NCBI RefSeq assembly: GCF_964213995.1
Contig: NW_027590172.1
Location: 62,001 to 126,000 of the forward strand
Reading direction: 5' to 3'
Origin: Mustelus asterias
Lineage: Eukaryota
DNA length: 64,000 nt
The notes under the pieces are model-generated. The model ran no database searches. It saw only the letters and a list, made by a program, of their open reading frames with translations, and was not told where the DNA came from. Made by a program: the position numbers and the translations under genes. Positions 1-60,839 of the stretch are shown one piece after another. Position 1 is the stretch's first letter; every line of letters begins with the position of its first letter.

Positions 1-911
<911 letters not shown>

Positions 912-1029
912 CGGCTCTGCTCTGATTCTGCTGTTGTTAATCAGATTCAGGACTGAACCTTGTTCATCACGACACTGGGGAAGTGTTGATGATGTTGCTG
1001 CTAACTACAGTAACTGGGCTGGAGCTGAT

Positions 1030-1260
1030 AGAACTTGCATTCATATAGCACCTTTCACAACCTCAGGACATCTCTGTGTACAGTCAGCCTCCACAAACAG
1101 CAATGTGGCAATGAGCAGTGATCTGTTTGCAGTGAGATTGGGAGAGGGGTAATACTGGTCTCACCAGGGTGAGCTCCCTGCCCTCCTTCCAAATAGAAGC
1201 CATGTGATCTTTCATCTCCGCCTGACAGAGCAGGTGGGGCCCTTGGTTTAACATCCTCAT
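1030..1260 (-). mobile_element. DeuSINE-like (SacSINE1/AmnSINE1-type) fragment
   Basis: Minus strand GATGTTAAACCAAGGGCCCCACCTGCTCTGTCAGGCGGAGATGAAAGATCACATGG resembles the Deu domain; tail GTGCTATATGAATGCAAGTTCT. Confidence 0.6.
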
Positions 1261-1980
1261 ATTAGTGAAGTGAAGAGCCTTAATTCTGAGACAATTGAAG
1301 AATAAGCAATTAAACAATAGTTGTACTTGTCAGACTGGTAATATAACCTGTAACACAAAGGCTGTAATTGTTTATTATTATAAACAATATGATTTTAAGT
1401 ACACTGGTCATAAATCATGAGAACTGTCAAATTATGTTTTCCAGTCAATCTAGAAAGATAAGGTAGAGCTCACAAAACATTTATGGCTTTGACAAGTTAC
1501 GTTAAGTTGGGGAATGAATGGGACCTTACTCAAGTTGTCTAATTTATTGTACTCAGACATCAGGAGATGCCAGTAGGTGTCAGGGGCCAATCAGACAGTG
1601 AAGTTACTCAAATATAGTTCAACACTGAGGCTAATTTGAGCAAATGAGAGTTGAGGGGGTAAAAATAAAGGTTTTGAGTCGCCATTCTGTTAACATGTTA
1701 TCCACCTTGTCTGATTATCATTTTACGTCTTTGGCTGATCAACCGAGGAAAGTTTTGAGAAGTCTGTTTCATTGTGAAGGATAAGCTTTCTCCTTTCTGC
1801 CAATTACTGTTCATTCGAACTTTGTTTTTTATCTTTCTAACTTTTTAACCTTTTAATGGTTAATAAATCTTCTGATTTTACCAATTAAAATGTTCATTCT
1901 GGCGAGATAGATAAATCTTAATTGAAAATTGGGGATTTATTGCAAACAACCTCTACCCGATAAATCAACTTCAAAGTGCA

Positions 1981-2082
1981 AATGCTCCCCTGGATTTGGT
2001 GTCTCGGTGGAAGTGGTCCCTGGATTTTGTGTTTCTGTGTAAATGGTCCTTGGACTTGGTGTCTCAGTACAAGTGGGCCCCG
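1981..2082. repeat. ~30-bp degenerate minisatellite, ~3.5 copies
   Basis: Units resembling AAGTGGTCCCTGGATTTGGTGTCTC... Confidence 0.7.
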
Positions 2083-4209
2083 CACTGCTTTCAGTCCAAC
2101 TGTCTATATTCCATCTTTCATTGATTCAATGTAATGGAAACTGGGAGTTGGAACCTGTCAGCATTTGAAAGATATTCACAAATAATTGGAGGATTTCTTA
2201 CATTTTGGGATCTTTCTCTGTTCTGTCCTCTCGAGGTGTTAGATAACAGACTTCACCCTGTGAATATCCAGCTGGAGTATTGGGCCCAATGTGTTTCCTT
2301 GTTTATATTGTTGACTCTAAATATTGAATCTTGTGGTTTCAGACGTCAGATAATCAAACTCCCAACAACAGATTGTCTTTTACTGACTTTATTAACAGCA
2401 CTGCAATAATAGACAGAATATAGTTACTTGTTCTGGAGAACAGAGATAATATCATAGATTCAGAGCTCTCTATCCTGAGCAAGCCATTCAGTTGTGACAA
2501 ATTGCTACAGAAAAGTCAATGAAAAAACTACACAGATCAGCCCACATTGACCGAGGTTCCAGAAATGACAACAGCACACTGTTCCCAAGACAATCCTGCA
2601 AAGATTTCCTGGCTAACAGCTGGGGGCTTGTGCCAAATTTAGCAGAGATTTTCTGTAAGACCTGGATTCACCTCAACTTAAATATAAGACTTAACGTCAA
2701 TTATAATTGTTGGACTCAGTTGGGAGATCTGATTTAAAAGGGACTTTCATTTTTAACTAGCTACAGGACCAAACTTAGTACAAATATTGTTCCAAGCTTT
2801 ACAGAATTTACTAAGTTAATCACATAAGTACAAAATGCAAAACTTAATAAAGGCAGTGGAAGCAGTCAGTTCACTTTGTAACGCTGGCGCACAACTTCCA
2901 GCCGACTGCAGCACTGTCTCTTGTCCTGTTGATTGTTGTCTACCTTCTTCCTGCTCAGCTTCTCTGAGCTGTGAACTTGGCAGCTGAAAGCTGATGGTTA
3001 TTAACCCTTTCTAGACACAGCCCCTGTGCACGATCAATGGTGTTCCTGAACTCTGGTTCACCATGATCAGTCCCTGATGGATGTCGGTGGTGTGTAATCA
3101 GTTTCTGATTGGTTTCTTCATGGTGATGGTCATCTACTGACCATTTCCTGCAATCTCCCGACTGGCCCTCTAATGTATCAGTTACTTTCGGAGTCTGCCC
3201 CACGTTATAACCTTTCCTGTCATTTCATTAAATTTTATGGCTTTGTACTGAGATAATGGGGGGCGTGAAGATATCTTCTTTGTCACTTATTTGAAATAAG
3301 TAAATTTATGGTGTCAAATCCCAATGGTTAACATTTGGACCAAAATGTCTAATTGATGTGTAGGAATCCTGTAGAGTTCTCATTGGGGCAGGTGACTCTC
3401 AGTATATTTTGGTTAAAGAAAGTGCTTGCTGGTTTTTGTAGTGGTTGCCAGAGCTTGGAACACAGTTAATTAAAAGGACACAAAGTGACACACAGCCTTA
3501 AACTAATACAGAAATTACAAAGTTACTTCAGATCTGAAATCCAAAGAATGTGGGCATCAAATCAGTGTGTAAAAGGTGAGATAGCAAGAAACACATAAAT
3601 ACAGCATGATACATTCAATTGATAAATGTTCAACACTAATGAGTCAGAATAACTACTGCGCTACGAAAATTAAACTGAAACCTTTAATTTTTCAAACCAA
3701 TGATGGTTATATAGTGTGAAGGAAAGTGATTGCTTCTTTTAAGATATTACAAGTTAAAAGTTTAAACTAATTTACGACAGTGCTGAAGGTTTGAAACTTC
3801 ACAGCTGGTTTCTTCACACAATATGGCCTCTAATTCAAGTATAACTGTTATTATCAATGGCTGAGGAGTTAACAGTTCCAGACCTTAGCTCATCCAGAGT
3901 TGATGGGATCCACAGGACTCTGTAATTAAAGTATAAAAGTGTAGCTTTACACCGGCCTCGGGTCATGTGATGTATTTCACTTGTCAAATAAGGATGCAGT
4001 TACAGACAAAGCCAGTTACATGATACGAATATATTATAATTAAGCAGAATATCGTATCAGGTTAATTGATTAATAAGCTTCAATTACTTGATCATTACAC
4101 ATAACTAAGCTACAAACTATTAAACATGACCGTTCCTACAGTCAAACAGTCCAGTCAAGCAACAGGCTGACACAGTCATACTTTGAATCATATCTTACTG
4201 CCAATGTCT

Positions 4210-5350: not shown

Positions 5351-5444
5351 ACTGTCCTACCAGCAGTTCAGACCTGAGTAGGGGGAGCAGCACAGAGGTG
5401 TACAGTGCAAGTGAGTCATCCTGGGAGTCCTCAACTTGAAATTC

Positions 5445-5800: not shown

Positions 5801-5879
5801 AGTTCAAGATGGAGTGTAGGAGAACAAGTCAGGAGCAGCACTGGGCACCCTAAAACTGAGATTCCAACCTGGTGACTCT

Positions 5880-6175: not shown

Positions 6176-6425
6176 CCAGGAGAGTAACAAGGTATGAAAA
6201 CTGAAATAATCCAGAGTTAGAAAGGAGAAAAGGCCACAAAAATGCAGCAATTAGTAACAAGACATTGATTAATCTTTTCTTGTCCTGGAGAAATGAAGGT
6301 CCCAGCTTTGTGTCTTAAACAATATTAGTTAATTTGACATTTATCCGGAGTAATAAACTCCAGCCCAGTTATAGCAATCACAAACATCAGCGAAAACACA
6401 CCCCAACTGTCAGAATGAACATTGT

Positions 6426-7487
6426 TCAATCCTGGATGTGATTAACAGCAGCAATAACAGCAGAATCCAATTCCTCCAGACACTTGTCAATTTGCTGGTG
6501 TGTTAGAAGGTGGGTTGACTGAGTGAATCCCATCTCACACTCAGAGAAGGTGAACGGTCTCTCTTCATTGTGAGTGTGTTGATGTCTCAGCAGGTGGGAT
6601 GAGTGAGAAAATCCCATTCTGCACTCAGAGCAAGTGAACGGTTTCTCCCCGGTGTGAATGTGCTGGTGTGTTCGCATGTTGGATGAGCAAGTGAATCCCT
6701 CTCCACAGTCAGAGCAGGTGAACGGTCTCTCCCCAGTGTGAACTTGCTGGTGTTTCAGCAGAATACTTGAGGTCTTAAAGCTCTTCTCACATTCAGAACA
6801 TCTGAAAGGTTTCTTATCCGAGTGAACAAGTTGGTGTGATCTGAGGCTGGTTAAATAAATGAATCCTTTTCCACACAAGGAGCAGGTGAATGACCTCTTC
6901 CCAGTGTGAACTCGCTGGTGTTTCTGGAGGCTGGATAACAGAGTGAATCCCTTCCCACACACTGTACATCTGAATGGCCTCTCCTCATTGTGAACTCGCT
7001 GGTGTATCAGCAGATCACTTGTGGTTTTATAACTCTTCTCACATTCAGTACATTTGAAAGGTCTGTTATCAGTGTGAACCAGTCGGTGTGTAGCGAGGTG
7101 GGATGATCGTGTGAATCCCTTCCCACACACACAGCAGATGAATGGCCTCTCCCCAGTGTGAGTGCGTTCGTGTTCAATGAGGTTCTGTGATCGTTTAAAC
7201 AGCTTCCCACAATGAGAGCAACTGAACTGTCTCGCAATGTGAACAATCTGGTGCTTGACCAGGTCCTCAGAGCTTTTAGAGTTGTTATCACTGTCAGAGT
7301 GGCTAAAAAGCCTCTCTTCAATGTGAACTTGCTGGTGGGTCAGCAGGTGGGATGACTGAATGAATCCCTTCCCGCATACGGAGCAGGTGAATGGTCTCTC
7401 CCCAGTGTGACTGCGGCGATGTATTTCCAGCAGCGATGGGTAACTGAATCCCTTCCCACAGTCCCCACATTTCCATGGTTTCTCCAT
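6426..7487 (-). CDS. C2H2 ZNF protein, 10 canonical + 2 degenerate fingers, C-terminal tail CLEELDSAVIAAVNHIQD
   Basis: Open frame from MEKPWKC (ATG 7487) to TGA 6426. Finger 3 has lost its Cys pair; the last finger is degenerate. Confidence 0.85.
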   Translation of the reverse strand: MEKPWKCGDCGKGFSYPSLLEIHRRSHTGERPFTCSVCGKGFIQSSHLLTHQQVHIEERLFSHSDSDNNSKSSEDLVKHQIVHIARQFSCSHCGKLFKRSQNLIEHERTHTGERPFICCVCGKGFTRSSHLATHRLVHTDNRPFKCTECEKSYKTTSDLLIHQRVHNEERPFRCTVCGKGFTLLSSLQKHQRVHTGKRSFTCSLCGKGFIYLTSLRSHQLVHSDKKPFRCSECEKSFKTSSILLKHQQVHTGERPFTCSDCGEGFTCSSNMRTHQHIHTGEKPFTCSECRMGFSHSSHLLRHQHTHNEERPFTFSECEMGFTQSTHLLTHQQIDKCLEELDSAVIAAVNHIQD

Positions 7488-9270: not shown

Positions 9271-9273
9271 TAA

Positions 9274-12487: not shown

Positions 12488-13692
12488 ATGGAAGGAAAAA
12501 GCACCGTTCACAGAGAGGAGAAACCGTACACGTGTTCTGTGTGTGGACAAGGCTTCAATCGATCATCTGGCCTGTAGAGTCACAAGCGCAGTCACACCAG
12601 GGAGAGACCGTATAAATGTGGAGACTGTGGGAAAGGATTCAATTATCCAGTTGACCTGAAAAATCACCAACGCACTCACACTGGAGAGAGACCTTTTAGC
12701 TGCCCTGTGTGTGGGAAGGGATTCACTCAGACAGCTGGCCTGTTGATTCACCAGCGCATTCACAGCAGGGAGAGGCAGTTCACCTGCTCTGAATGTGGAA
12801 AAGGATTTACTCAGTCATCGGCCCTGCTGATACAGCGACACATTCACACAGGGGAGAGGCCATTCACCTGCTCCGTGTGTGGGAAGGGATTCACAGATTT
12901 CTCTGCCCTGCAGAGACACCAGCAAGTTCACACCGACAGGAGAGAGTTTAAATGCACTGAGTGTGGAAAGAGTTTTAAAACTCCACGCACACTGCGGGAG
13001 CACCAGTACATTCACACCGGTTCCACACCGTTCAGCTGCTCCCACTGCCAGAAGGGGTTCAGGACATCATTCCACCTTGTGGCACATGAGCGCGTTCACA
13101 CTGGAGAGAGGCCATTCACCTGCTCTGACTGTGGGAAGGGGTTTAACCGATCATCCAACCTGCAGAAACACCAACGAGTTCACAGTGAAGAGAGACCGTT
13201 TAAATGTCCAGACTGCGGGAAGGGCTATAAAAGTTCTGAGGAACTGCGTCACCATCAACGTGTTCACTCTGACGAGAGACCATTCATGTGTTCTCACTGC
13301 GGGACTGGCTTCAGGCGATCAGGCGACCTCACTGTACACCAGCGAATTCACACTGGGGAGAGGCCGTTCACCTGCCCTGTGTGTGGGAAGAGATTCACTT
13401 GTTTATCCTCTCTCACTTCACACCAACTTGTTCACACAAATGAGAGACCGTTCAGATGTTCTGACTGTGAGAAGAGCTTTAAAAGCAGAAAACTTCTGCT
13501 CGCACACCAGCGAAATCACTCTGAGGACAAACCGTTCACCTGCACTGAGTGTGGGAAAGATTCACCCGGTCATCCATTCTGCTGAGAAACCAACAAGTTC
13601 ACAGTGAGGAGAAGCCGTTCACTTGTTCAAAGTGTGGAAAGAGATTCATCCAGTCATACAACCTGGTGAGACACCAGCGAGTTCACCAGTGA
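12488..13692 (+). pseudogene. C2H2 ZNF array, ~14 fingers, MEGKSTVH-type start, in-frame TAG and 1-nt frameshift
   Basis: ATG 12488; TAG at 12575-12577 in finger 1; frameshift at ~13557 (TGT GGG AAA GA TTC); terminal TGA 13690-13692. Confidence 0.8.
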
Positions 13693-14169
13693 TCACAGGG
13701 GTGTGATTCTGCTGTTATTGCTGCTGTTAATTACATCCCAACTAAATTATGTTTATACTGATAGTTGGAGTTTTTCTGATGTAAATCAACCCTGTTGGAC
13801 TTGTAGAATGCCCCACAGCATCTCTCATTCATGTGTCAATAAATCTTCACGCATGCAGACCTTGTTTTAAATTTAAATCACTCAGAAACTGTTTTGAACA
13901 AAGATGAATAATAAACAGGTCACAGTCCAATCCACCCCTGTGTGAATGTGCCGATGTATCAGCAGGCCGATGACTAAAGTCTGTTTTGTAACTTCAGGAT
14001 AAGGATTTGAAAGCTCTGAATGTTGGTCCTCTCATATGTAGGCTGGAGCTATTTGATAGGCAGGATGTTAATCGCTGTAAACTTGTCAGATGTCGAAAGA
14101 ATTACTATTGGAGTAAACTCACCCATTGATAACCTCAGACTCTGGTCCCTATTGTAATGAACAAGTAAC

Positions 14170-16395: not shown

Positions 16396-17700
16396 GTTTA
16401 AAAGTGGCCAACTCTGGCTGTTGGCTGATAAAAACCTCCCAGAAGGTTCGGCAGGACAAACATAACCTGTCGGTGGACTGTGCTAAGAGAAAAAAAGGTG
16501 TGAGCCCCCTGAATATGCAAGTGGCCAAAAAGGCAGACACACCAGTGATCGAATCATCAGAAGGACAAAGGACAGTAAACAGACCAGCAGGGAGTCCATG
16601 GCCACAGAAATCGGCCCATCCACAGAAGACATTGAAATAACGACCCACGGGGGGTCAAGGCAGTTCCAGCCTTTTGTGTGTGGACTTGACTAAATTAAAC
16701 TGAAGCTGCCGGTGATTGAAAGCCCCATTGTCCTTGAAAATCACCTATTGGGACAGGGAAGGTGTTTTTGTTAAATTGAGCTCAGAGTCAAACAAGCAGA
16801 ACCGAGCTCTCTTCCAGAATCACAAGCAGGGACACAGACAAGCAGGACCAAGCTCTCTTCCAGAATCACAAGCAGGGACACAGACAAGCAGGACCAAGCT
16901 CTCTTCCAGAATCACAAGCAGGGACACAGACAAGCAGGACCAAGCTCTCTTCCAGAATCACAAGCAGGGACACAGACAAGCAGGACCAAGCTCTCTTCCA
17001 GAATCGCAAGCAGGGACACAGACAAGCAGAACCAAGCTCTCTTCCAGAATCGCAAGCAGGGACACAGACAAGCAGGACCAAGCTCTCTTCCAGAATCGCA
17101 AGCAGGGACACAGACAAGCAGAACCAAGCTCTCTTCCAGAATCGCAAGCAGTGACACAGACAAGCAGGACCAAGCTCTCTTCCAGAATCGCAAGCAGGGA
17201 CACAGACAAGCAGGACCAAGCTCTCTTCCAGAATCGCAAGCAGGGACACAGACAAGCAGGACCAAGCTCTCTTCCAGAATCGCAAGCTGAGAAGCAGACC
17301 AGCAGGACCAAGCTCTCTTCAGTTTCGACCCTGCACTAAGACATTTGAGCCGACCACAAAGGAACCCCTTTTAGAATTGTGAGTATCCCAGCCAAACTTG
17401 CGAAGCTCCCGAGGATAGGATAGAGGTTGAGGCAAGGGGAGGGGTGGTGTATTGTAATTTTAAAGTTCAGTAATACGTTGTACCCATTAGCATTTCTCCC
17501 ATAGTGTAGTATAAAGTATAAGTTTTATTCCTGTGTGGTGGGGTATTGAAGAGGTTGATTTTATTATTAAATAAATCACTGTAAATTTTGAAACTCATTT
17601 GGAGTCCGTCTTGCCTCTTGTTCTCTCATCAGTGCACTCTGACGAGGTCACAGCTTCAATATCCCTTACCATAAATCCGGAGTCTGGAACCGAGGGTGAT
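16396..17700 (+). mobile_element. Possible LTR-like element containing a 46-bp tandem array
   Basis: Non-coding block starting at the Penelope breakpoint, with an internal tandem array and AATAAA at ~17570. No clear TG..CA ends or TSD seen. Confidence 0.3.
16793..17321. repeat. 46-bp minisatellite, ~11.5 near-perfect copies
   Basis: Unit CAAGCAGGACCAAGCTCTCTTCCAGAATC(A/G)CAAGCAGGGACACAGA. Confidence 0.95.
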
Positions 17701-19375: not shown

Positions 19376-19389
19376 TCACGGGCATTTGT

Positions 19390-20302: not shown

Positions 20303-22254
20303 TAACGTTCACAATTTTGTGTTTATGTCTGGTGCGAATAATACTTTGGATTAAACGGAGAAGTTTTTTAAACTGAGGAGAGTAACTGCATTTGGGCGCT
20401 GACTTTAAACAACATTAACAAGCCCGGGCTGCTGGAGAAACATTTAGGGATTTGTGAGCAGTGAATTCCGGCTGGTTTGAAGTGAAATCCTGTCGGTGCT
20501 GCGGCAAATCTGAACTCAAACCAGACAAACTGGAACCGCTGGGTTAGAGATTCCGGGTGTTGGGATGTGGAGGCTGGGGGAGGGGGAGATGGCGGTAAAA
20601 CTCTGAGCCTGAGTTTCGAGCGGGATGTGAGCGGGATAAAGGGAAGGAATGACAGTTAATGTGGGAGTCAGGGACAATAGCAGAAGGTGGGAAGCTCTGG
20701 AAAGGAGCACGGAGGGTAAAGGCCATCAAAGAATGCTTGTTTAAATGAAGATAAAAGCAAAATACTGCGGGTGCTGGAATCTGAAACAGAAAATGCTGGA
20801 AATCTCAGCAGGTCTGACAGCATCTGTGGAGAGAGAATAGAGTTAATGCTTCCAGTCTGGATGATCACAGATGCGATCAGACCTGCTGAGGTTTTCCAGC
20901 ACTTTCTGTTTTTGATTAACTGAAGGTTCAGCAGGGAAAGAAGCAGCGAACTGAACACACTGGACCCAGGGGGAGGGGGTGACCCAGGATAAGGGACAGG
21001 CGCAGCTCCGTGAGGCTCTGCAATGTCCATCAACACATCCACATTCAGACCTTAGAGCGTCAAGGGGGAGGGGAAGGAGAAACTATCTGGGGCACAGCAG
21101 GAGGTCACCCCTCCCCCCCACTCTGTGGTTCCACATCCCTCCCACACCTGGACAGGGTTGGCTCAAGGTGCAGGAAGCTGCAAGCTGAGAGGCTGAGCTG
21201 TGAACTGGGCGGGGTTGGGGGTTTGAGTGACAGTCCTGGGGCTATTTCAGGACAGGAACCGCCACAGATTCCCTCTTTTTCCTGGGACGTTTCTGTGGAG
21301 CTGTGTTGGTGAGTGTTTGTAATCTCTGTCTCACTGTCTCGGTAATGGGGGTGGGTTGTAGATTGCTGTGAGTGTTAGACTAAATAACCTCTCCTCATGC
21401 TGCCAGTTCCAGTCTGCAGACTCCATTTCTCAGTCCAGTTTGCTGCTCTGTCTCTGTCTCTCTGTACTTTGCTGCAGTGCTCCACATTCTGAGCAACATC
21501 CAGCCCATTGTTATCACCCGAAATTTGCGGCAAACTCCCTTCACTGTGGCACAGTGGTTCGCACTGCTGCCTCACTGAGTCTGGGTTCGATTCCAGCGGT
21601 GGGTGACTGTCTCTGTGGAGTTTGCACAGTAAGAAGTCTCAGAACACCAGGTTAAAGTCCAATAAGTTTATTTGGAATCAAAGCAAATTACTGCGGATGC
21701 TGGAATTTGAAACTATGTTCTGTGGAACATCGTTTCCTCACTTGTTCCTGTAAAGCAGTAAATCCTCATCCTGAACACTTTCCCTCCTCCCTGTCCTGCA
21801 ACCAACTCCCACACTGACCAACCATCTCATATTTCAATGGATTGTCCCATGACTCCAGTGTGCCAGGCTGCATGGCGTATGGGCGCTGTTTCACCCATAA
21901 GATGGATGTGTGCAGCACCCTCTTCCAACTGTTCTGGCTGCCAACCAGCCCGTGCCCACCCTCGCAGTTCCAGCAGCACCGCACACAATACTGCTCACCT
22001 GCTCCGACAGACTCATGAAGGATGTCCTTTCATTTTCTCAGAGAGAGTTGGTCAGCCTGGCAAACCCAGTGTGAAATATCTTCACAAATCTTTTCTCCCA
22101 CCCTCTATTCTGGCTGGGTTCAGTTCTCTTTTGTACAGAGTGAAAATAAAATCAATTATTTTCTTTCCCGGTCACTGCAGGGAGCTGCAGCTTTTTACTG
22201 GGGGTGTTGGGACCTCCAGCGGGTGATTGTGAATCCTCCCCGCCCACCTCCCAG

Positions 22255-23050
22255 GGCAAATGGAGTTTAACCCTGATAAATGTGAGGTGATTCATTTTGG
22301 TAGGACAAATTTAAATGTGGATTACAGGGTCAAAGGTAGGGTTCTGAAGACTGTGGAGGAACAGAGAGATCTTGGGGTCCATATCCACAGATCTCTAAAG
22401 GTTACCAGTCAAGTGGATAGAGCTGTGAAGAAGGCCTATAGTGTGTTAGCTTTTATTAAGAGGGGGTTGGAGTTTAAGAGCTGTGGGGTTATGCTGCAAC
22501 TGTACAGGACCTTGGTGAGACCACATTTGGAATATTGTGTGCAGTTCTGGTCACCTCACTATAAGAAGGATGTGGAAGCGCTGGAAAGAGTGCAGAGGAG
22601 ATTTACCAGGATGCTGCCTGGTTTGGAGGGTAGGTCATATGAGGAAAGGTTGAGGGAGCTAGGGCTGTTCTCTCTGGAGCAGAGGAGGCTGAGGGGAGAC
22701 TTAAGAGGTGTATAAAATGATGAAGGGGATAGATAGAGTGAACGTTCAAAGACTATTTCCTCGGGTGGATGGAGCTATTACAAGGGGGTATAACTATAGG
22801 GTTCGTGGTGGGAGATACAGGACGGATATCAGAGGTAGGTTCTTTACGCAGAGAGTGGTTGGGGTGTGGAATGGACTGCCTGCAGTGATAGTGGAGTCAG
22901 ACACTTTAGAAACATTTAAGCGGTTATTGGATAGGCACATGGAGCACACCAGGATGATAGGGAGTGGGATAGCTTGATCTTGGTTTCAGATAAAGCTCGG
23001 CACAACATCGTGGGCCGAAGGGCCTGTTCTGTGCTGCACTGTTCTATGTT
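22255..23050 (+). mobile_element. CR1/HER1-type LINE, 5'-truncated, relatively young
   Basis: ORFs 22260..22715 and 22708..22977 ([24 protein letters not shown]); 3' tail GGGCCGAAGGGCCTGTTCTGTGCTGCACTGTTCTATGTTCT. Confidence 0.9.
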
Positions 23051-23934: not shown

Positions 23935-24650
23935 AGAAACGAGGTGGAGCAAGTGACTGAAGTGTCAGTCAGGGAGCACTATTGGGAGCACCAATAGTTT
24001 CAAAATAGTTCTGGAAAAAAATAGGACAGGTCCACAGGTCAAGGCCCTAAACTGGAGCAGGGCCACTTTTGTGGGCATTAGGCAGGATCGAGCAGATGTC
24101 GATTCGGTGAGTTTGTTTGAAGGGAAAGGAATGACTGGCAAATGGGAGGTTTTAAAAGTGTGATATCAAGAGTCCAGGGGCAGTATATTCCTGTTAAGGT
24201 GAAGGGAAATAATGGTAAATTTAAGGATCTCTGGCAGACAAGGGACATTGAGGCTCTGGTCAGGTAAAAGAAGGAAGCATACATTGGGTTTAGGAAATCG
24301 GGGACAAGTGAATCACTCTGACTATAAAAAGTGTAAGAAAATACTGAGGAGGGAAATCAGGAGGACAAAAAGAGGGTATGATATGGATCTGGCAGGTAAG
24401 ATTAAAGAAAATTCCAAGAGGTTCTATAGCTATATTAAGAGTAAAAGGGTGGCTAGAGAGAGAATAGATCCCCTTAAAAATCAGTATGGCCATCTGTGTG
24501 TGGAGCCACAGGAGATGGGTGAGATTTTTAATGAATACTTCTCCTCTGTGTTTACTGCGGAGAGCACCATGGGTGCTAAAGAAATAAGGGAAACAAGTGA
24601 TGATGTCTTGGGCACACGCATGTTACTTGGGAGGAGGTATCTGCAGCCTT
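23935..24650 (+). mobile_element. CR1 ORF2 internal fragment
   Basis: LAGKIKENSKRFYSYIKSKRVARERIDPLK..EMGEIFNEYFSSVFT. Confidence 0.85.
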
Positions 24651-24654
24651 ATAA

Positions 24655-25440
24655 AAGCAAATTACTGCGGATGCTGGAATCTGAAACCAAGAGAGAAAAT
24701 GCTGGAAAATCTCAGCAGTTCTAGCAGCATTTGTAAGGATCAAAGACAACCAGAGTAAAAGGATGTTCACAATGTTCTGGACACAAATGGGTTCTCTTTA
24801 ATTCATCTGTAGCCTGTTCCTTGCCCTCTTTGTGGAACACCTCCGCTCAGTCCACAAGCATGACCCTGACCTTCCGCTTGCCATTAGAATTCACCACCTT
24901 GCTCTCACGCTCACATTTCTGTCCTCGGCCTGCTGCAATGTTCCGGAGAAGCCCAACACAAGCTGGACAAACAGCCCCTCATCTTCCGATGAGGCACTTT
25001 ACAGCCTTCTGGACTCAACGTTGAGTTCAACAACTTCACACCCTGAACTCTCTCCTCCATTTGGATTTGTTTTTTATTTGCTGAGTGTCAGTTTGCATCT
25101 TGTTTTCATGTTTTTTTGCTTCCAGACAGAGCTGTCCTTTATTCTACCATTCACACTTACTCTGGGCCAATGCTTTGTTTCTTTACGATGTGGAGATGTC
25201 GGCGTTGGACTGGGGTAAACACAGTAAGAGTTTTAACAACACCAGGTTCCTCTTGGACTTTAACCTGCTGTTGTTAAAACTTCTTATTGTTTCTTTATTA
25301 CAACCATTACCTCTCCCTTTGCCTTGGGTTCCGGGACATTTTTGTCATTTAATCTCCACCCGCCCTCTAACCAATCCCTGACTTTCTCTTTGTTCTACCT
25401 GACCCTCCCCCCTTTCTCACCAGCATCAAACCCATCACAT
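24655..25440 (+). mobile_element. Penelope-like fragments; an inverted pLTR piece of the other family is inserted at ~25188-25290
   Basis: EHLRSVHKHDPDLP GIY-YIG-like text at 24832 and TLQPSGLNVEFNNF near 25000; inverted repeat GTTTTAACAACACCAGGTT/AACCTGCTGTTGTTAAAAC. Confidence 0.65.
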
Positions 25441-31466: not shown

Positions 31467-32099
31467 GAAGAGATTCGCTGACTCATCCAACCCAGCAATA
31501 CACTGGCGAACTCACAAAGAGGAGAGGCCATTCACCTGCTCCCAGAGTGGAAAGGGATTTAATCGTCATCCAAACTAGTTGTACACCAGCGAGTTCACAC
31601 TGGAGAGAGGCCTTTTACCTACTGTGTGTGTGGCAAGAGATTCATTGATTCATCCAGCCTAGCAATACACCAGCGAATTCACAAAGGGGAGAGGCCATTC
31701 ACTTGCTCCCGGTGTGGGAAGGGATATGTTACCTCATCCACTCTTCTGAGACACCAGTGAATTCACAAGGAACTATTGTGATTGTATTTTCCTGTTGAGC
31801 ATATTCAAACTAAACCATGTTCCTTTGGGTCTGTTTCTGCTGAATTGAAAAATAACTTCAGCTCTGTTTCAGTGTTAATATAGTTGGTTTGAGAAGAGGA
31901 GGATTTGGGGTCAGGAAACTTGCACAAAGCATCAGATTATCTGAACAGCAGAGAATTTTGTACATGGAAGGAAACAACTCCGTTCTCAATCACATTAGGG
32001 AGAAGCCATGCAACTGTGGAGACTGAAGTGATTGGTGGACCATTTTTTATGGTTTTCTAATTCAACACATTTCTATTTTTATTAGTTTACTATCATATT

Positions 32100-38135: not shown

Positions 38136-38220
38136 ATAAACATAAAACTGTCAGAGTGAACATGGTTCAGTTCTGGATGTGAATAACAGCAGCAATAACA
38201 GCAGAATCCAGTCCCTGTAA

Positions 38221-38960
38221 TCATTTGTGAGCTCACTGGTATCTGAACAGATTGGATAACTGAGTGAATACCATCCTGCACAGACCCAGTGAATGGCCTC
38301 TCCCCAGCATGAAGACACTGGTGTGTCAGAAGGTTGGATGAATCAATGAATGCTTTCTCATTCAGCTGAACAGCCTCTCCCTGTTGTGAACTCGCTAGTG
38401 TGTTTGCAAGTGAGATAATCGATTAAATCTCATCTCACACTCGAGACAGCTGAATGGCCTCTCCCCTGTGTGAACTCGCTCGTGTCTCAGCAGGTCAGAT
38501 GGAGTAGCGAAAGCTTTCCCACACTCAGAGCAGGTGAACGGTCTCTCCCTGGTGTGAACTCGCTGGTGTATCTGTAGGTTGTAGGAGAGAGAGAATCTCT
38601 TTCCACATTCAGAGCAGGTGAATGGCCTCTCCCCAGTGTGAACTCGCTGGTGTGTCTGCAACTGATAACCGACTGAAACTCATCACACACTTGGAGCAGG
38701 TAAATGGCCTCTCCCCACTGTGAATTCGCTGGTGTATCCGGAGGTTGGAGGAGCGAGAGAATCCCTTTCCACACTGCAAACAGATGAACGGCCTCTCCCC
38801 TGTGTGAACTCGCTGGTGTGTCATTACATCGGATGAATTCGTAAATCCCTTTGCACACTTAGTGCAGGTGAATGGTCTCTCCCCAGTGTGACTGCGCCGA
38901 TGAATTTCCAGCTCCGACGGGAATCTGAATCCCTTTCCACAGTGTCCACATTTTCTCCAT
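38221..38960 (-). pseudogene. C2H2 ZNF array, ~9 fingers, several disablements
   Basis: ATG GAG AAA at 38960 followed by an 8-nt deletion; frameshift at ~38660; TAG at 38395; degraded last fingers. Confidence 0.85.
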
Positions 38961-42083: not shown

Positions 42084-42923
42084 ATGGCATGGAAGTGTGA
42101 GGATTGTGGGAAGGAATTCAATTACCCATCCCTGCTGGAAACTCATCGACGCAGTCACACTGGGGAGAGGCCATTCACTTGCTCTCAGTGTGGGAAGGGA
42201 TTCACTCAGTTATCCAGCTTACATATACACCAGAGGACTCATGCTGAGGAGAGGCCGTTTACCTGCTCCCAATGTGGGAAGGGATTCAATCAGTCATCCA
42301 ACCTAGCAATACACCAGCGTGTTCACACTGGGGTGAAACCGTTCACCTGCTCTGAATGTGGGAAGAGATTTTCTCACTCATCCACTCTGCTGATACACCA
42401 GCGAACTCACACTCAGGAGAGGCCATTCACTTGCTCCCAGTGTGGGAAGGGATTTGCTGACTCATCTACTTTATTGAAACACCAGCGAGTTCACACTGGG
42501 GAGAGGCCATTCACCTGTTCCCAGTGTGGAAAGGGATTTGCTCAGTCAGCCACCTTGTTCACACACCAGCGAATTCACACTGGGGAGAGGCCATTCACCT
42601 GCTCTGTGTGTGGGAAAGGATTCAGTCGGTCATCAACTCTGCTGACACACCAGCGAGTTCACACTGGGGAGAAACCATTCATCTGCTCTGTGTGTGGGAA
42701 AGGATTCAATCACTCATCCAACCTAGCAATACACCAGCGAATCCACACAGAGGAGAGGCCATTCATCTGCTCTGTGTGTGAGAAGGGATTCAATCAGACG
42801 TCTAAACTAGCAATACATCAGCGGGTTCACACTGGGGAGAGGCCATTCACCTGCTTGCAGTGTGGGAAGGGATACGTTACCTCATCGAATCTTCTGACGC
42901 ACCAGCGAATTCACAAGTTGTGA
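42084..42923 (+). CDS. C2H2 ZNF protein, 10 intact fingers
   Basis: 279-aa ORF. The older MEGKS-type start upstream is mutated (TTG at ~41968, TAA at ~42027); splice acceptor TTTCACAG at ~41858. Confidence 0.85.
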
Positions 42924-42934
42924 TTGGATTTCAA

Positions 42935-48289: not shown

Positions 48290-49660
48290 CATTTTAGGTA
48301 TCAGTGTCTGGTAAACCGTCTCTGAACTGTCTCCAGCATACTTGCACACTTCCTTAAATAAGGTGACCAATATTGCACACAGTACTCCAGATGTGGTCTC
48401 ACTAGTGACCTGTACAACTGAAGCATAACCTCCCTAGTTCTGTATTTAATTCCCATCACAATGAATGATAACATTCTATTAGTTTTCCTAATTACTTGCT
48501 GTACCTGCATATTAGCCTTTTGTGATTTATGCACTCGGACACCCAGATCTTGATCAATTGGGCCAGTGGGCTGACGAATGGCAGATGGAGTTTAATTTAG
48601 ACAAATGCGAGGTGATGCATTTTGTAGATTGAACCAGGGCAGGACTTACTCAGTTAATGGTAGGGCGTTGGGGAGAGTTACAGAACAAAGAGATCTAGGG
48701 GCACATGTTCATAGCTCCTTGAAAGTGGAGTCACAGGTGGACAGAGTGGTGAAGAAGGCATTCGGCATGCTTGGTTTCATCGGTCAGAACATTGAATACA
48801 GGAGTTGGAATGTCTTGTTGAAGTTGTCCAAGACATTGGTAAGGCCACACTTGGAATACTGTGTGCAATTCTGGTCACCCTATTATAGAAAGGATATTAT
48901 TAAACTGGAAAGAGTGCAGAAAAGATTTACTAGGATGCTACCGGGACTTGATGGATTGAGTTATAAGGAGAGGCTGGATAGACTGGGACGTTTTTCTCTC
49001 GAGCGTAGGAAGCTGAGCAGTGATCTTAGAGAGGTCTATAAAATAATGAGGGGCACAGATCAACTAGATAGTCAATACCTTTTCCCAAAGGTAGGGGAGT
49101 CTAAAACTAGAGGGCATAGGTTAAGGTGAGAGGGGAGAGATACAAAAGTGTCCAGAGGGGCAATTGTTTCACACAGAGGGTGGTGAGTGTCTGGAACAAG
49201 CTGCCAGAGGTAGTAGTAGGGGCAGGTACAATTTTGTCTTTTAAAAAGCATTTAGACAGTTACATGGGTACGATGGGTTTAGAGGGATATGGGCCAAATG
49301 CGGGCAATTGGGATTAGCTTAGGGGTTTTAAAAAAGAAAGGGCGGCAAGGACAAGTTGGGCCGAAGGGCCTGTTTCCCTGCTGTAAACCTTTATGACTCT
49401 CTGACTCAATCCCTCTGATTCTCAAAGCTCTGCAATCTCTCACCATTGAGACAAAATGCTTCTTTTTCATTCTTCCTGCTGAAATGGACAATTTCATATT
49501 TGCCCAAATTCTACTCCATTTACCAGATATTTCCCCACTCACTTAACCTTTCTGTCTTTCTGTACTCTCTGTATGTCCGCTTCACAACTTACTTTCCCAC
49601 CTATCTGTGCGTTATCGGCAAATTTGCCAAACATCCTTTCATCCAGTCATTCATATAAAT
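48290..49660. mobile_element. CR1 fragment (-; 48290-48550 and 49405-49660) interrupted by a plus-strand CR1/HER1 3' end (48553-49400)
   Basis: ORFs 48301..48534 (-) and 48605..49317 (+) contain RPHLEYCVQ(Y/F)WSP. Confidence 0.85.
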
Positions 49661-54645: not shown

Positions 54646-54714
54646 AACATCAAACTCCGGTCCAGTTACAGGAGAAATAAAAAAAGGATTAACAACAGCA
54701 TTCAACCCCTGCAG

Positions 54715-55221
54715 TTACACATGAATTCGCTGATGTCTCAGCAGGTTGGATGACCGATTGAATCCCTTCCCACACTCTGAGCAGGTGAACGGCCTCTCCC
54801 CACTATGAGTGTGTTGGTGTGTCTGGAGATTGGATGATTGAGTGAACTGCTTCCCACACACAGAGCACCTGAACATTCTTTCCCCATTGTGAACTCGTTG
54901 GTGTTGAATAAGATGAGATGATTGTCTGAATCTCTTTTCACAGTGAGGACAGCTGAATGGTCTCTTGTCAGTGTGAACAAGCTGGTGTTTCACTAGATCT
55001 GGAGAGGTTTTAAAGCAATCCCCACAGTAAAAGCATTTATATGGTCTCTTGTCACTGTGAACTCTCTGGTGTGACCCTAGGCTGGATGACTTTGTGAATC
55101 CCTTCCCACATGTGGAGCAGATGAACGGTCTCTCTCCAGTGTGAGCACGTCGATGGGTTTCCAGCTGGGATGGGTAACTGAATCCCTTCCCACAGTCCCC
55201 ACATTTCCATGGTTTATCCAT
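54715..55221 (-). CDS. C2H2 ZNF protein, 6 intact fingers
   Basis: 168-aa ORF MDKPWKC..HQRIHV*. Confidence 0.88.
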
Positions 55222-55779
55222 GGTGCCGGTATCCTTGTGTCTCTCCAGATTGGATGATCAGTTGAAGCCTCGTCCAAACATGGAATACGTGTATGGTTTC
55301 TCCCCGCTGGGAATGGTATGATTTTCTTTCAGGCTGTGTAACTGGTTAAAGCTCTTTCCACAGTCAGTTCACTGGAACACTCTCATTCGTGTGTGTGTGT
55401 ATCTCGGTGCTTTTCCAGTCACACTGATGCTTGAACTCTTTCCCCACAGGCAGAACAGAGAAACATTTCTCCTTCCACAGTGAAAGGTTGATGATATTTA
55501 GCTCTTGATTAATTCAGTGACTCTGACTGATCGCAAAGAAATGTTTTTCTGTCTTCAGATCATCTCCTACTAACTCCCTGTAAAAAGAATTGATGGTGTC
55601 AGTGTCACTCAGTCCAGGATAGAAATTCAGAACAGAAATATCTAGTTTCTGTGCAACATTCCCACCCTCTGTTCTTCCAAATATGTGATCCAATTAAACT
55701 AAAATAAGCTAAAAGCAGCAACAAAGTCCTCACAAAAGGAAAGGGAATGTTCTTAACTAAACCAGAATGTTTTTTACAA

Positions 55780-56975
55780 ACACATGAACAAGGAGCTGAA
55801 GTAGGCCATTCAGCCCCTCCACCATTTATTGAGACTGTGGCTGATTTGATGGTAACCTCAAATCTGCAAGATGCTTACCTCTGATAATCTATCACCCCCT
55901 TGCTTACCAAGAATCTATCCACCTCTGCCTTAAAAATATTCAAAGATTCTGCTTCCACTACTTTTTCAGAAAGAGATTTTTAAAGACTCACAACCCTCTG
56001 AGTGAAAGAATTTCTCCTGACCTCTGGTTTAAACGGACGACTCCTTATTTTTAAACAGTGACCCCTAGTTCTAAGTTCTCTCGCAGAAGGAAACAGCCTC
56101 TTCACAACCACCTTGTCAAGACACCTCAGGATCTTATAATGGTTTAGTCAAGTCTCCCCTTGGTATTCTAAACTCCAGTGGATACAAGCCAAGTCTGTTC
56201 AACCTTTCCTTACAAGACAATACACCCATTGCTGCTATTAGTCTGTTAAACCTTCTCTGAACTGCTTCCAACATATTGACATCCTTCCTTTAATAAGGTA
56301 ACCAACACTGTACACAATATTCTAAATGTGGTCTCACCAATGCCCTGCACAACTGAAGCATAACCTGGTTACTTTTGCAATCAACTCCCTCACAATAAAT
56401 GGTAACATGCTATTAGCTTTCCTAATTACTTGCCCTGCTTGTATAAGAGCCTTCTGTGATTCATGCACTGTGACACAAAGGTCTCTCTGCACCTCAGAGC
56501 TCTGCAATCTCTCACCATTTAGATAAGTTTATCTTTTATTCTTCCTGCCAAAGTGGACATTTCACAGTTGCCCAATTCTACTCCATTTACCAGTTTTTTG
56601 CCCACTCACTTATCCGATGTGTATATTTTTGTAGTCTCCTTATGTCATCTTTACGACTTATTTTCCTGCTTATAGTAGATTGGCCATGCTTAGTGTCCAA
56701 AGATGTGTAGGTTAGGTAGACTAACCATGATGAAATGTGTGGCATTATAGGGATAGGGCTGGTGGTGGGCCTGGGTAAGGTGCTCTTTTGGAGAGTCAGG
56801 GCAGACCTTATGGGCCAAATGGCCTCCTTCTCCACTGTACGGATTCAATGCTTCTATGGCTTATCTTGTGTGATCATCAAATTTGGCAATCATTGCTGCA
56901 ATTCCTTCATCAAAGTCATTTCTATATATTGTAAACAGTTCAGTTCCCAGCAGTGATTCCTGTGGCACACCACTT
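55780..56975 (-). mobile_element. CR1 LINE 3' fragment with an HE1 3' half inserted (+, ~56675-56860)
   Basis: Similar to 4210-4876; RRLQKYTHRISEWAKNW. Confidence 0.75.
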
Positions 56976-56989
56976 GCCAAAAGGGCCAC

Positions 56990-57440
56990 CCAGATTTCCC
57001 TCAGTGTACCTGAACAGGTACCGGTGTGTGGCGACTAGGGGATTTTCACAGTAACTTCATTGCAGTGTTAATTTACCCTACTTGCGGCACTAATAAATAA
57101 ACTTTAAACATTAATGATCCACAAACTCCTCTGGGCAGCACAGTGGTTAGCACTGTTGCCTCACAGCGCCAGGGACCCCGGGTGCTTTCCCAGCTTGGGT
57201 CACTGTCTGTGTGGAGTTTGCACGTTCTCCCCGTGTCTGCGTGGGTTTCCTCTGGGTGCTTCTGTTTCCTCCCACAGTCCGAAAGACGTGCTGGTTAGGT
57301 GTATTGGCCATGCTAAATTCTCCCTCAGTGTAACCGAACAAGCGCCGGAGTGTGGCGACTGGAGGATTTTCACAGTAACTTCATTGCAGTGTTAATGTAA
57401 TCCTACTTGTGACACTAATAAATAAACGTTAAAACTTTAT
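56990..57440 (+). mobile_element. Tandem V-SINEs of the GTGACACTAATAAATAAA-tail subfamily (partial 56990-57110, full 57133-57440)
   Basis: V-domain and tails. Confidence 0.85.
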
Positions 57441-57489
57441 ATTGGTTCCTGTGACTCTGCGGGAACTCGGACCTCATTGGAAACAGACA

Positions 57490-57850
57490 CTGAAGCCCCG
57501 CCCTCTATTGCGTCACCAAGGGGGCACGCATGCGCGCCATTCCCCGTTGGAACAAGATGGCGGCTGTTCACTCCGGCTTTGTCCCGGGAAACAGACAGGG
57601 AGCTGCAGACACGGGACCTTCAGGTCAGTATTTTAGGTTTGAGGCTTTCACCACGTGTTTCGAAACATTCCCCGTTCCACGGTTGGCACTATCACTCCCT
57701 CTGGGTCACCATATTCTTACCCGTTTGGAGATACGATTGACAACGAACACTCCGTGGCCATTGCTGCGCATGCTCCGAATACAGAGCGTTATTGCGTTTG
57801 CGCACTGCCCTGGATAGGGGACATCCACCGCCGCGGAGAACTCTGGGTAA
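57490..57850. promoter_or_regulatory. Bidirectional promoter of ZNF pair 4, paralog of 8930-9660
   Basis: CCCGCCC, ATTGCGTCA, ACGCATGCGC, YY1 CAAGATGGCGGC (57553-57564), TGCGCATGC at ~57765, in the same order as in pair 1. Confidence 0.75.
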
Positions 57851-58542
57851 AGTACCCACCATCTACTGTCCAAATTAATTTTTCTGCTATGATGTAGGGA
57901 TTAGGGCGGCGGGGCAAATAAATGAAGTTAGGAACCAAATAATATGTAAATCCAAGTGCACAGATCCTCCATAGAAAGAAGGAAAGTGCGAATTGGTGGA
58001 GAATCAAGAGTTCACAAAGCAGTGGCAAAAACTGCAGAAACCTACCCCTGCAATCACATAGGAACTGACCAAGTGAATCCTATCAGTGAGTAATTGTATG
58101 ACCTCGTGTATGACTTAGATCATATATTTTAGTCATGTTAGCACACTAATAAAACTGAATTACTGGAAACAGGCTGCAGCTCTTTTCATTTTCATATATT
58201 ACAGAATGCAGGTGTCACTGACATTTATTATCATTGCTGAATACTTTTGAGAAGGTGATGACAATCTGTCTTCCCTAACCACAGCAGCCCATGGAGGTTT
58301 CGGATGGTTTCTGGGTCCCCAGAATATTAGCCTGGGCCTTTGGATTACTAGTCCTGTGATATTACCACTGTGTCATCATCTTCCATCACAAAAAATACCC
58401 ATTTTAGCATTTCCTGCTATTGAGGCAATTTTGTATCCAAAATGTAACTTGCTCGTGGATCTCTTGAGATGTGGTGTTTCTGCCCAGTCTGCCATGTGGG
58501 AACACTGTCGATGTGGATAGAATGTTTCCTTGTGTGGGAGAA

Positions 58543-58812
58543 TGGGTGGCACAGTGGTTAGCACTGCTGCCTGACAGCGCCAGAGACCTGGGTTCAATTC
58601 CCGGCTTGGGTCACTGCCTGTTCGGAGTCTGCACGTTCTCCATGGGTTTCCTCCCACAGTCCGAAAGACGTGCTGATTAGGTGCATTGGCCATGCTAACT
58701 TCTCCCTCAGTGTATCCGAACCGTGGTTAGAGTGTGGCGACGCGGGGCTTTTCACAGTAACTTAATTGCAGTGTTAATGTAAGCCTACTTGTGACACTAA
58801 TAAATAAATAAG
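58543..58812 (+). mobile_element. V-SINE, GTGACACTAATAAATAAA-tail subfamily, inserted in a CR1 3' fragment (~58500-59110)
   Basis: Head, V-domain and tail; CR1 text on both sides. Confidence 0.8.
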
Positions 58813-59461
58813 TAGAATCATCCAAAATGAGGGGCCAGAAATGTAAGATAGTCACAGACAAATCCAATAGGGGAAATAAGGAGAAATGTGTTTATCAGAG
58901 CAGCTACAATGTGGAACTCACTACTACAGGAAATAGTTGTGGCAAAAAACCTTTCAAAATGAAACGAGATGAGTGGATAAGAGGGAAAAGAATAGAGCAC
59001 GAAAGTGAAAGACTGAGCTGAGGGAGGTGGAATGGAAGGAGATGCTTGTGGAGTATCAACAACAGCAGAGACTGACTGGGCCAAATGGCCAGTTTCTGTT
59101 CTATATATTCTGTGTAATTCTATATAAACTGTTTCCACAGGATGTTCGAAGAGGAGGATTTACAGATAGGAAAAAAAATAATTTTTAAGATCTTCAGAGT
59201 GACACAATTCATCAGGACCTGAATATCATCGGCTGTTCAATGTGGAAGGAAAAATGCTTTTCTGTTCAAACCTCGGTGTGACTGGAAAAGCACTGAGACA
59301 CACACACATCCGAGTGAGAGTGTTCCAGTGAGCTGACTGTGGAAAGAGCCTGAAAAAAACATCACCCCATTCGCAGCGAGGAGAAACTGTACACGTGTTC
59401 TATGTGTGGTTGAGGCTTCAACTGATCATCCAACCTGGAGAGAGACAATGACACTGGCACC

Positions 59462-59968
59462 ATGGAGAAACCATGGAAATGTGGAGACTGTGGGAAGGGA
59501 TTCAAATACCAATCTCGGCTCGAATATCATCGACACACTCACACTGGGGAGAGACCGTTCCTTTGCTCCATGTGCGGGAAGGGATTCACTCGGTCATCCG
59601 ACCTTCTGAGACACCAAACCACTCACAATGAGGAAAGACCATTCACCTGCTCCACGTGTGAGAAGGCATTCATTCAATCATCCAATCTCAGGATACACCA
59701 GCGAGTTCACACTGGAGAGAGGCCATTCACCTGCTCTGAGTGTGGGAAGGGATTCAGTCAGTCAGCCCACCTGCTGGCACACCAGCGAGTTCACACTGGG
59801 GAAAAGCCGTTCACCTGCTCTGAGTGTGGGAAAGCATTCATCCATTCATCCCACCTGCTGAGACACCAGCGAGTTCACACTGGGGAGAAGTTGTTTAACT
59901 GCTCCATGTGTGGGAAGGGATTCACTCAGTCACCCCACCTGGTGAGACACCAGCGGCTTCACAAATGA
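59462..59968 (+). CDS. C2H2 ZNF protein, 6 intact fingers
   Basis: 168-aa ORF MEKPWKC..HQRLHK*; acceptor TTTCCACAG at ~59140. Confidence 0.88.
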
Positions 59969-60839
59969 CTGCAGGGATTGGATTCTACTGTTAATCACAT
60001 CCAGAACTGAACCATGTTCATTCTGACAGTTAGTGTTTCCTTCTGCTGAAAATAATTTAACTGAAGTTTTATATTCTGGTTATATGTCCAATAAACCAGC
60101 TTTGTTTTGAACCTATTGTTTTAGATTTTTATCTTTCCCACCCAAGTGTTTAACATCACCTGTCTGGGGCTCAAAAAGGACAATCTGGGGGAGGATCGTA
60201 CGGCAGGAACAGAACTTCAGGCTGGACACAGTCCAGGAACACGGTGACCATCCACATTTTGTCCCCGTTGAATAAAATCGAACACAGCGTTTATTCTCCA
60301 TCCAGTTATCTGACGTTTTCTATTAGTCCAGCTTACACTGATCTCCCTGGTAACAGATATTGTGCTTCCTTCCCTCATTTCCAATTAGTTATTATAAAAT
60401 CTGTTTCTTCCAATCTATCTGGAACATCAGGTGGACCTCCCCAAGTGGAATTGAGACAGAGGTGAGATCAGCCATGATCAGATTGAATGGCGGAGCAGGC
60501 TTGAGGGGCTGAATCGCCGACTCCTGTTCCTAGTTCTTATGTTTTTCAGTTAACGATCATCACTGTCCCTGTGAGGGAATGTTGTGAATTTCTATCCTGG
60601 ACTCGCTGTGATGGATTTTGGAAACTCCTTTCAAATGGACTTAGAGGGGGAGGATTTACACATCGTAAACCTAAACTAAGAAAAATATTTGTCTTTGATC
60701 AATCTTTAACTTTGGACATTTTTTTCACAGGACTTCAGAAGCTCAGTGGTGGAAGGCAAAAAACTCAAACAAAACATCACAGCAGCATCTGACGCTATCG
60801 CCTAAATAATTGTAATCTGAATATTATTGTAATTTGAAC

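What the first reader, a model, noticed from the sequence alone, without database searches (positions are those of the whole stretch)
909..60010. Conserved, frame-preserving extension after the ZNF stop codons (xQGLDSAVIAAVNHIQD*)
Seen: after the last finger, divergent paralogs share a ~50-70 nt element whose translation stays in frame. 909: *RLCSDSAVVNQIQD*. 13690: *SQGCDSAVIAAVNYI. 38223(-): *LQGLDSAVIAAVIHIQN*. 54717(-): *LQGLNAVVN. 59966: *LQGLDSTVNHIQN*. In the 6426 gene the first TGA is TGT (6480-6482), so the tail is constitutively coding (CLEELDSAVIAAVNHIQD*). Length differences in the core are multiples of 3, a second TGA is kept at the same position in four copies, and the first stop is often followed by C, a known leaky context. 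Inference: this may be a family-wide readthrough-encoded C-terminal motif (cofactor motif or degron standing in for the absent KRAB domain) or a shared 3'UTR RNA element. The element contains TGCTGCT, a miR-15/16 seed match, and a TGAAC-CAT-GTTCA hairpin. Caveat: the internal GCTGTT repeat 12 nt apart could produce 3n deletions neutrally, and the 13690 and 61461 pseudogene copies break frame.
Basis: partly seen in the sequence, partly recalled or inferred. Interest (0 to 1): 0.72.

Follow-up and report, generated by a model that had tools for sequence, protein, structure and literature searches.

The report
Inherited tail behind shark zinc-finger stops
A very large family of zinc-finger genes in a shark-like genome shares a short stretch after the stop codon that looks like a hidden peptide, but it mutates like untranslated DNA and is most likely just the inherited gene end, not a stop-skipping switch.

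Summary
The element is real and family-wide: 149 of 191 sampled zinc-finger arrays in G000 carry it, including 99 of the 100 that end His-X-stop. The readthrough reading fails. Only 9 of 39 intact gene lineages have an open frame to the second stop. Of the rest, 14 are blocked within three codons, 7 are frameshifted and 9 lost the second stop or the tail. The extension has dN/dS about 1.0 and 10 stop gains against 9.9 expected, while finger linker and scaffold codons give 0.35-0.41. Indels show no significant 3n bias, and 3n slips also occur in copies out of frame with any ORF. There is no UGA-CUAG, covarying structure or Rfam match, and the miR-15/16 site is in 10 of 39 lineages. Best reading: the ancestral 3' UTR start, copied with each gene duplication. 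About ten independent stop losses made it coding, including the 6426 subfamily; two horn-shark proteins also end in it. A weak RNA-level constraint on the core is not excluded. The scan noted this before on other DNA (e1-9548137, e1-9162418).

The parts
909..956 (+). Stop TGA (909-911), 14-codon tail with a 9-nt deletion, homologous second TGA (954-956); this gene copy is frameshifted upstream
   Evidence: paralogs L123-L133 mostly intact
6426..6482 (-). Stop-loss copy: TGT (6482-6480), 17 further coding codons, TGA (6428-6426), behind a decayed last finger; member of a recent subfamily
   Evidence: 29 of 30 nearest loci TGT, 1 TAT; one TGA>TGT event on the tree
13690..13745 (+). TGA plus tail with a 1-nt deletion, also present in the intact paralog L169; this gene copy is broken
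31770..31870 (+). Divergent tail copy with GAA at the stop position and an in-frame TGA three codons later; broken gene
   Evidence: profile E 8e-9
38167..38223 (-). TGA, 17 open codons, TGA, in a pseudogene with in-frame stops upstream
42915..42931 (+). Shortened remnant of the tail after an intact 10-finger ORF ending HKL* (TGA 42921-42923)
   Evidence: homology judged by eye, not reached by the profile search
54687..54717 (-). TAA plus the first part of the tail; the second stop is gone; intact 6-finger ORF
59966..60010 (+). TGA, 13 open codons (short form), TGA (60008-60010); the only intact gene of the window with this arrangement
60090..60095 (+). AATAAA about 120 nt after the stop, a candidate poly(A) signal (use not shown)
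61461..61553 (+). TGA plus tail with a frame-breaking deletion; broken gene
61722..61836 (+). Orphan copy of the tail with no finger or stop directly upstream, still reading DSAVIAAVNHIRD*
   Evidence: profile E 1e-26

Best explanation
The element is most likely the first 75-130 bases of the ancestral 3' UTR of one huge zinc-finger gene family, copied with every gene duplication and evolving without protein-level selection. Shown: it follows the last finger in nearly all members, it has dN/dS near 1, it gains stops at the neutral rate, and it takes frameshifts in intact genes. Inferred: ribosomes normally terminate at the first stop. The frame looks preserved because 13-17 codons are open by chance 44-54% of the time, because the family is young relative to the slow shark clock, and because the GCT/GTT-rich core with a 12-nt tandem duplication slips in units of 3, 9 and 12. 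Point mutation of the first stop has made the tail coding about ten separate times; these extensions are probably tolerated rather than selected.
For: 149 of 191 arrays carry the element, 99 of the 100 that end H-X-stop, and 0 of 19 in the separate C8 zinc-finger family. Of 39 intact lineages, 9 are open, 14 blocked within 3 codons, 7 frameshifted and 9 lack the second stop or tail; in random tiles 4 of 23 intact genes are open. Extension omega is 0.98 with stop gains 10 vs 9.9, and the two other frames give 1.11 and 1.04. Open-and-intact branches give 1.0-1.09 against a control of 0.35-0.41. A 9-nt slip varies among L196-L206, where the tail is out of frame behind an earlier stop. The orphan copy at 61722 keeps the 'peptide'. 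The non-coding 5' leader is shared just as widely. Sense codons at the stop position are diverse and nested in stop-bearing clades, with root TGA. Stop-to-stop swaps are at the neutral level (6 vs 5-7) and stop losses at about half (10 vs 17-21). In organism B raw reads, 247 of 1197 show T>G at the second base of the first tail codon, the change that makes TGA-TGA, and 97 of 1195 show TAA. A slow shark mutation rate is reported (PMC10587355, passages).
Against: The tail evolves somewhat slower than the comparators: 0.55 changes per unit against 0.64 at fourfold sites and 0.68 in the leader. In a 25-gene subset its best 12-nt window (93%) beat every leader window (best 91%). With the tree-based measure the same core was not significant (permutation P 0.07; 7.8% of leader windows as slow). 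Thirteen replaced tails were masked, and the tree was built from tail and fingers; both favour a lower tail rate. Two Heterodontus proteins end in near-consensus tails, 15-16 of 17 residues; they are the top hits of a search for that tail. Several 3n events define clades while most non-3n events are singletons; sampling was enriched for the 909 and 59966 clades. The open-and-intact test rests on about 33 changes. No ribosome data.
Confidence: 0.8

Rival explanations
1. The GGATTCTGCTGTT core, with a second CTGCTG copy further on, is a weak cis-acting RNA element (microRNA or RNA-binding-protein site) that co-regulates the family's mRNAs.
For: Slowest window of the tail, 0.32 against a mean of 0.55. 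Best tail window above all leader windows in the 25-gene subset. [CT]TGCTG in 38 of 53 and a second CTGCTG in 26 of 53 representatives. Contigs of RNA-guess runs from three other organisms bridge the last finger and the tail.
Against: Permutation P 0.07-0.21. No contiguous invariant motif in 44 sequences. No covariation beyond shuffles, 49-127 of 500 reach the observed values. RNAalifold predicts 0 pairs. Folding z mean 0.16, 0 of 53 below -2. No Rfam match at E up to 1 in 5 loci. Intact genes have the tail replaced by other sequence (L200 clade, L254).
Confidence: 0.12
2. The tail is an old protein C-terminus, cut off by a premature stop in the family's ancestor, much as decayed fingers now form the 5' leader; it is a relic today.
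For: The consensus is open to a stop, and coding forms exist in G000 and in Heterodontus. The leader shows that the family does turn coding sequence into UTR.
Against: The coding forms carry many different residues at the stop position (C, R, G, Q, W, S, E, K in G000; I and R in Heterodontus), where a shared ancestral codon would give one; the parsimony root is TGA. Another Heterodontus protein ends at HK (P0004). The tail does not resemble a decayed finger (P 0.30). Loss before the family's common ancestor cannot be excluded.
Confidence: 0.08
3. Programmed stop-codon readthrough adds a functional C-terminal motif (cofactor site or degron) across the family or in one subfamily.
For: TGA is the commonest first stop (30 of 39 lineages) and is followed by C in 11 of 30. 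The 909 clade includes TGA-CGG, a context used by animal viruses (PMC4132726, passage). Readthrough of two adjacent stops has been predicted in insects (PMC5100048, passages), so TGA-TGA alone is not proof against.
Against: Omega about 1 in every class of branch, including open-and-intact. Stop gains at the neutral rate. 0 of 99 have TGA-CTAG. The first stop swaps among TGA, TAA and TAG six times. 11 frame-breaking indel events in intact genes (hand count).
Confidence: 0.03

Closest known systems
Vertebrate programmed readthrough genes OPRL1, OPRK1, AQP4, MAPK10 (PMC4132726; passages read)
   Same: A UGA followed by a short open frame and a second stop, shared between paralogs.
   Different: There the stop is always UGA, CUAG follows it almost invariably, and a coding signature continues. 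Here 0 of 99 have CUAG, the stop swaps, and omega is about 1.
Non-readthrough 3' ends as defined in comparative readthrough screens (PMC5100048, Fig. 1A legend; passages read)
   Same: Radical substitutions, frameshifting indels and poorly conserved in-frame stops after the stop, with swaps between stop codons: the pattern seen here.
   Different: Their comparison is across orthologs of many species; mine is across paralogs of one genome.
Lineage-specific tandem C2H2 zinc-finger expansions, KRAB-ZNF of tetrapods and FiNZ-ZNF of fish (PMC10547256; search listing, start of abstract and one term search)
   Same: Rapid birth and death of clustered finger arrays with many broken copies; flanks are copied with the genes.
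   Different: The term search found no mention of sharks or cartilaginous fish in its main text. I did not test this family for an effector domain.
Selenoprotein UGA recoding (features recalled, not from a call)
   Same: A TGA aligned with TGT/TGC (Cys) in some paralogs.
   Different: TAA, TAG and many non-Cys codons occur at the site, and no SECIS family matched in 5 loci.

Membership tests
Programmed stop-codon readthrough | First stop conserved as UGA | tested here: not met
   30 TGA, 8 TAA, 1 TAG in 39 intact lineages; 6 stop-to-stop swaps, neutral expectation 5-7
Programmed stop-codon readthrough | Conserved leaky 3' context (CUAG in vertebrates) | tested here: not met
   0 of 99 TGA-CTAG; 17 different 7-mer contexts in 39 lineages
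Programmed stop-codon readthrough | Coding signature between the stops | tested here: not met
   omega 0.98 overall, 1.0-1.09 on open-and-intact branches; control 0.35-0.41
Programmed stop-codon readthrough | Frame and second stop preserved in intact genes | tested here: not met
   9 of 39 lineages; 4 of 23 intact genes in random tiles
Programmed stop-codon readthrough | Ribosome footprints, peptides or reporter readthrough | not testable with these tools
   no Ribo-seq or proteomics on hand
Selenocysteine recoding | UGA exchanges only with Cys; SECIS in the 3' UTR | tested here: not met
   no Rfam hit at E up to 1 in 5 loci
Structured 3' UTR element (hairpin with three-base loop; Roquin/Regnase-type, recalled) | Conserved stem with compensatory changes | tested here: not met
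   perfect five-pair stem in 13 of 53
   TGCTGCT in 10 of 39 intact and 6 of 15 broken lineages
Paralog-shared 3' UTR inherited by duplication | Fixed position after the stop, confined to one family, divergence near neutral sites and other flanks | tested here: met
   rate 14-20% below fourfold sites and leader, so mild constraint is left open
Paralog-shared 3' UTR inherited by duplication | Present in the mRNA | tested here: inconclusive
   contigs of runs only guessed to be RNA, from other organisms, bridge finger and tail; no RNA holder on record

The most novel reading that the evidence does not exclude
The tail is a family-wide control module after all: either its CTGCTG core co-regulates on the order of two thousand zinc-finger mRNAs, or the ready-made peptide has been repeatedly recruited by stop loss (about ten times in this sample, once amplified to at least 30 copies, and in horn shark) as a constitutive degron or cofactor motif for effector-poor shark zinc-finger proteins.
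Probability: 0.12. Interest if true: 0.55.

Novelty: new member of a known kind. Interest (0 to 1): 0.12.

Why it matters
As found, it matters little. It shows how paralog families in slowly evolving genomes mimic a readthrough signature, and it warns against scoring such tails from a handful of copies. It also gives a handy nucleotide marker for this shark zinc-finger family. If the novel case held, it would offer a shared post-transcriptional control or a C-terminal effector for a family that earlier unchecked notes describe as lacking a silencing domain.

Tried and rejected
Selenocysteine recoding: rejected. Two hand-drawn hairpins, one with the indels in its loop and one with a three-base loop: no covariation beyond shuffles, no consensus fold, no folding excess. 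Tail as a decayed zinc finger: consensus P 0.30, 3 of 53 copies at P<0.05 (the script stopped with an error during the leader control after one value, z 4.05). Pairwise projection onto one reference mis-aligned divergent copies, so the multiple alignment was used. Whole-finger omega (0.94) was useless as a positive control because contact residues vary fast; linker and scaffold codons were used instead. Word-index protein search with the last 45 residues: 1 candidate, none at E<=0.001. Sequencing-run search: no RNA holder listed, which is no evidence on expression. Look-up of earlier findings by sequence: nothing. Paper searches for a description of this tail or of readthrough in shark zinc-finger genes returned 0 papers or no title on it (listing only). 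One search returned 0. One search was seen as a listing only and not used. PMC11620358 (abstract and outline) concerns decay driven by the fingers themselves and was not used as support. No ray or chimaera DNA could be reached. No supplements were opened.

Full report
Setting. The window is G000:C140:62001-126000 in a 3.68-Gb genome. It holds about eleven C2H2 zinc-finger arrays, many broken. I infer a shark because the tail-bearing proteins found by sequence search that carry names are named from sharks.

Observation. The quoted stops and translations are correct, and the core motif exceeds chance (18 vs 7.67, 0 of 100 shuffles). But the 909, 13690, 38223 and 61461 copies are broken genes. 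The 54717 copy has TAA and no second stop. Only 59966 is an intact gene with TGA, open frame, TGA. An orphan copy at 61722-61836, with no finger or stop in front, still reads DSAVIAAVNHIRD*.

Sample. I took 100 arbitrary 10-kb tiles, mostly from contigs known to hold hits, and 40 tiles centred on PF00096 matches. I added 120 loci from four searches, three with queries that exclude the tail and one with the tail. This gave 231 arrays of three or more fingers, 191 unique. A profile of the tail found it behind 149 of 191: 99 of the 100 ending His-X-stop, and 0 of 19 in a separate family on C8. The profile was built from those 100, so that fraction is partly circular; the alignment is clear by eye. 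The 99 fall into 47 clusters at 90% identity, and 73 are intact, meaning five or more fingers in one ORF.

Frame. Of 39 lineages with intact members, 9 are open to the homologous second stop, 14 hit a stop within three codons (7 with the context TGATGAC), 7 are frameshifted, and 9 have lost the second stop or had the tail replaced. In random tiles 4 of 23 intact genes are open. By hand count on the alignment there are 9 in-frame and 15 frame-breaking events apart from the 12-nt slip (p=0.67 against one third); 11 of the 15 include intact genes. Adding five 12-nt events gives 14 of 29 (p=0.11). Large replacements were left out of this count. The 12-nt unit is a tandem duplication that slips repeatedly: it is missing in 5 of 30 loci of the TGT subfamily, and both forms occur in organisms B and G. 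A 9-nt slip varies among L196-L206, where the tail lies out of frame behind an earlier stop. Against this reading, several 3n events define clades while most non-3n events are singletons; two of those clades were oversampled on purpose.

Codon test. Parsimony on a tree of the 99 sequences, with 13 replaced tails masked, gives 159 non-synonymous, 61 synonymous and 10 nonsense changes against 165.8, 62.2 and 9.9 expected (omega 0.98). The other two frames give 1.11 and 1.04. The same method gives 0.35-0.41 for linker and scaffold codons, so it detects purifying selection. Branches leading only to open, intact copies give 1.0-1.09 on about 33 changes.

First stop. It is TGA in 30, TAA in 8 and TAG in 1 of 39 lineages, and never TGA-CTAG in 99 sequences. 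On a tree of 149 sequences the root is TGA, with 6 stop-to-stop swaps and 10 credible losses; two further events (TTT, AGT) look like offsets and were dropped. Rough neutral expectations are 5-7 and 17-21. So termination here is mildly protected and the identity of the stop is free. Known vertebrate readthrough genes show the opposite (PMC4132726, passages). The 6426 gene is one such loss, since amplified, behind a finger that has lost its first Cys and last His.

Level of conservation. In 25 genes, pairwise identity is 81.2% in the extension, 81.3% in the next 25 nt, 80.7% at fourfold sites, 74.1% in the 346-nt 5' leader and 66.6% in the intron. Tree-based rates in 45 genes are 0.55, 0.52, 0.64 and 0.68 for extension, next 25 nt, fourfold sites and leader. 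Conservation does not end at the second stop. The leader, which is full of stops and frameshifts, is alignable over about 450 nt, more widely than the tail. The tail is somewhat slower than the comparators. Its best window beat all leader windows in one measure but not in the other (P 0.07). Masking and tree construction favour the tail, so a mild RNA-level constraint is open but unproven. Structure tests were negative.

Other species. Coded organisms A, B, G and H hold the element behind a finger. In raw DNA reads of B, 247 of 1197 carry T>G in the first tail codon (TGA-TGA if its neighbours are unchanged, which is inferred) and 97 of 1195 carry TAA. That depth from 1,922 million letters would mean roughly 2,000 copies if the genome is of similar size (my estimate). 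Runs guessed to be RNA from F, G and H have contigs bridging finger and tail; transcription is not shown. A search with the last 35 residues gave 17 hits at E<=0.001. Two Heterodontus francisci proteins end HKILQGLDSAVIAAVNHVQD and HMRLQNLDCAVIAAVNHIQD, while a third ends at HK. Mustelus asterias records also carry coding tails; their independence from G000 was not established, so I do not count them. The element is therefore old; the split of horn sharks from other galeomorphs is about 200 million years by recall. A mutation rate of 7e-10 per base per generation in epaulette sharks (PMC10587355, passages) makes neutral retention plausible, though I did not calibrate it.

Mechanism. Shown: family-wide position, neutral codon behaviour, slippage, repeated stop loss. 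Inferred: normal termination at the first stop, inheritance through segmental and tandem duplication, and toleration of the extension where the stop is lost.

Comparison and novelty. The pattern matches the non-readthrough case in PMC5100048 (passages), not programmed readthrough. My searches found no paper describing this tail. Two earlier unchecked notes of this scan reached a similar verdict on other DNA; they are not independent support. The feature is real but ordinary.

Noticed in passing
about 350 nt upstream of MEKPWKC starts, e.g. window 59080-59460 and 55220-55600(-): Shared non-coding leader made of decayed fingers with stops and frameshifts, after a TTTTACAG acceptor-like site; a second subfamily appears to start at an upstream Met ([12 protein letters not shown]). 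Also in earlier notes e1-9534447 and e1-9551152.
   Followed up: partly
window 61722-61836: Orphan second copy of the tail about 260 nt after the 61461 stop, probably a local duplication or deletion product.
   Followed up: partly
L221-L238, L219 (G000 C8:33-39 Mb): A separate tandem zinc-finger family with TGEKPF linkers, decayed terminal fingers and no trace of this tail.
   Followed up: partly
window 909 and 6426 genes; C613, C218, C667, C754, C395: The head-to-head-facing pair of these two genes recurs at similar spacing on several contigs, which points to block duplication.
   Followed up: no
window 16716-17370: Long open frames on both strands made of a repeated unit (KQGHRQAGPSSLPESQAGTQTSRTKLSSRI), a tandem repeat.
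   Followed up: no
window 22233-22715, 24203-24724, 48596-49129: Fragments that read like LINE reverse-transcriptase tails (recalled resemblance); similar sequence replaces the tail in the L200 clade.
   Followed up: no
last finger of 99 arrays: Changes pile up at the variable helix codons while linker and scaffold codons are conserved, as expected for diversifying DNA contacts; not tested formally.
   Followed up: no
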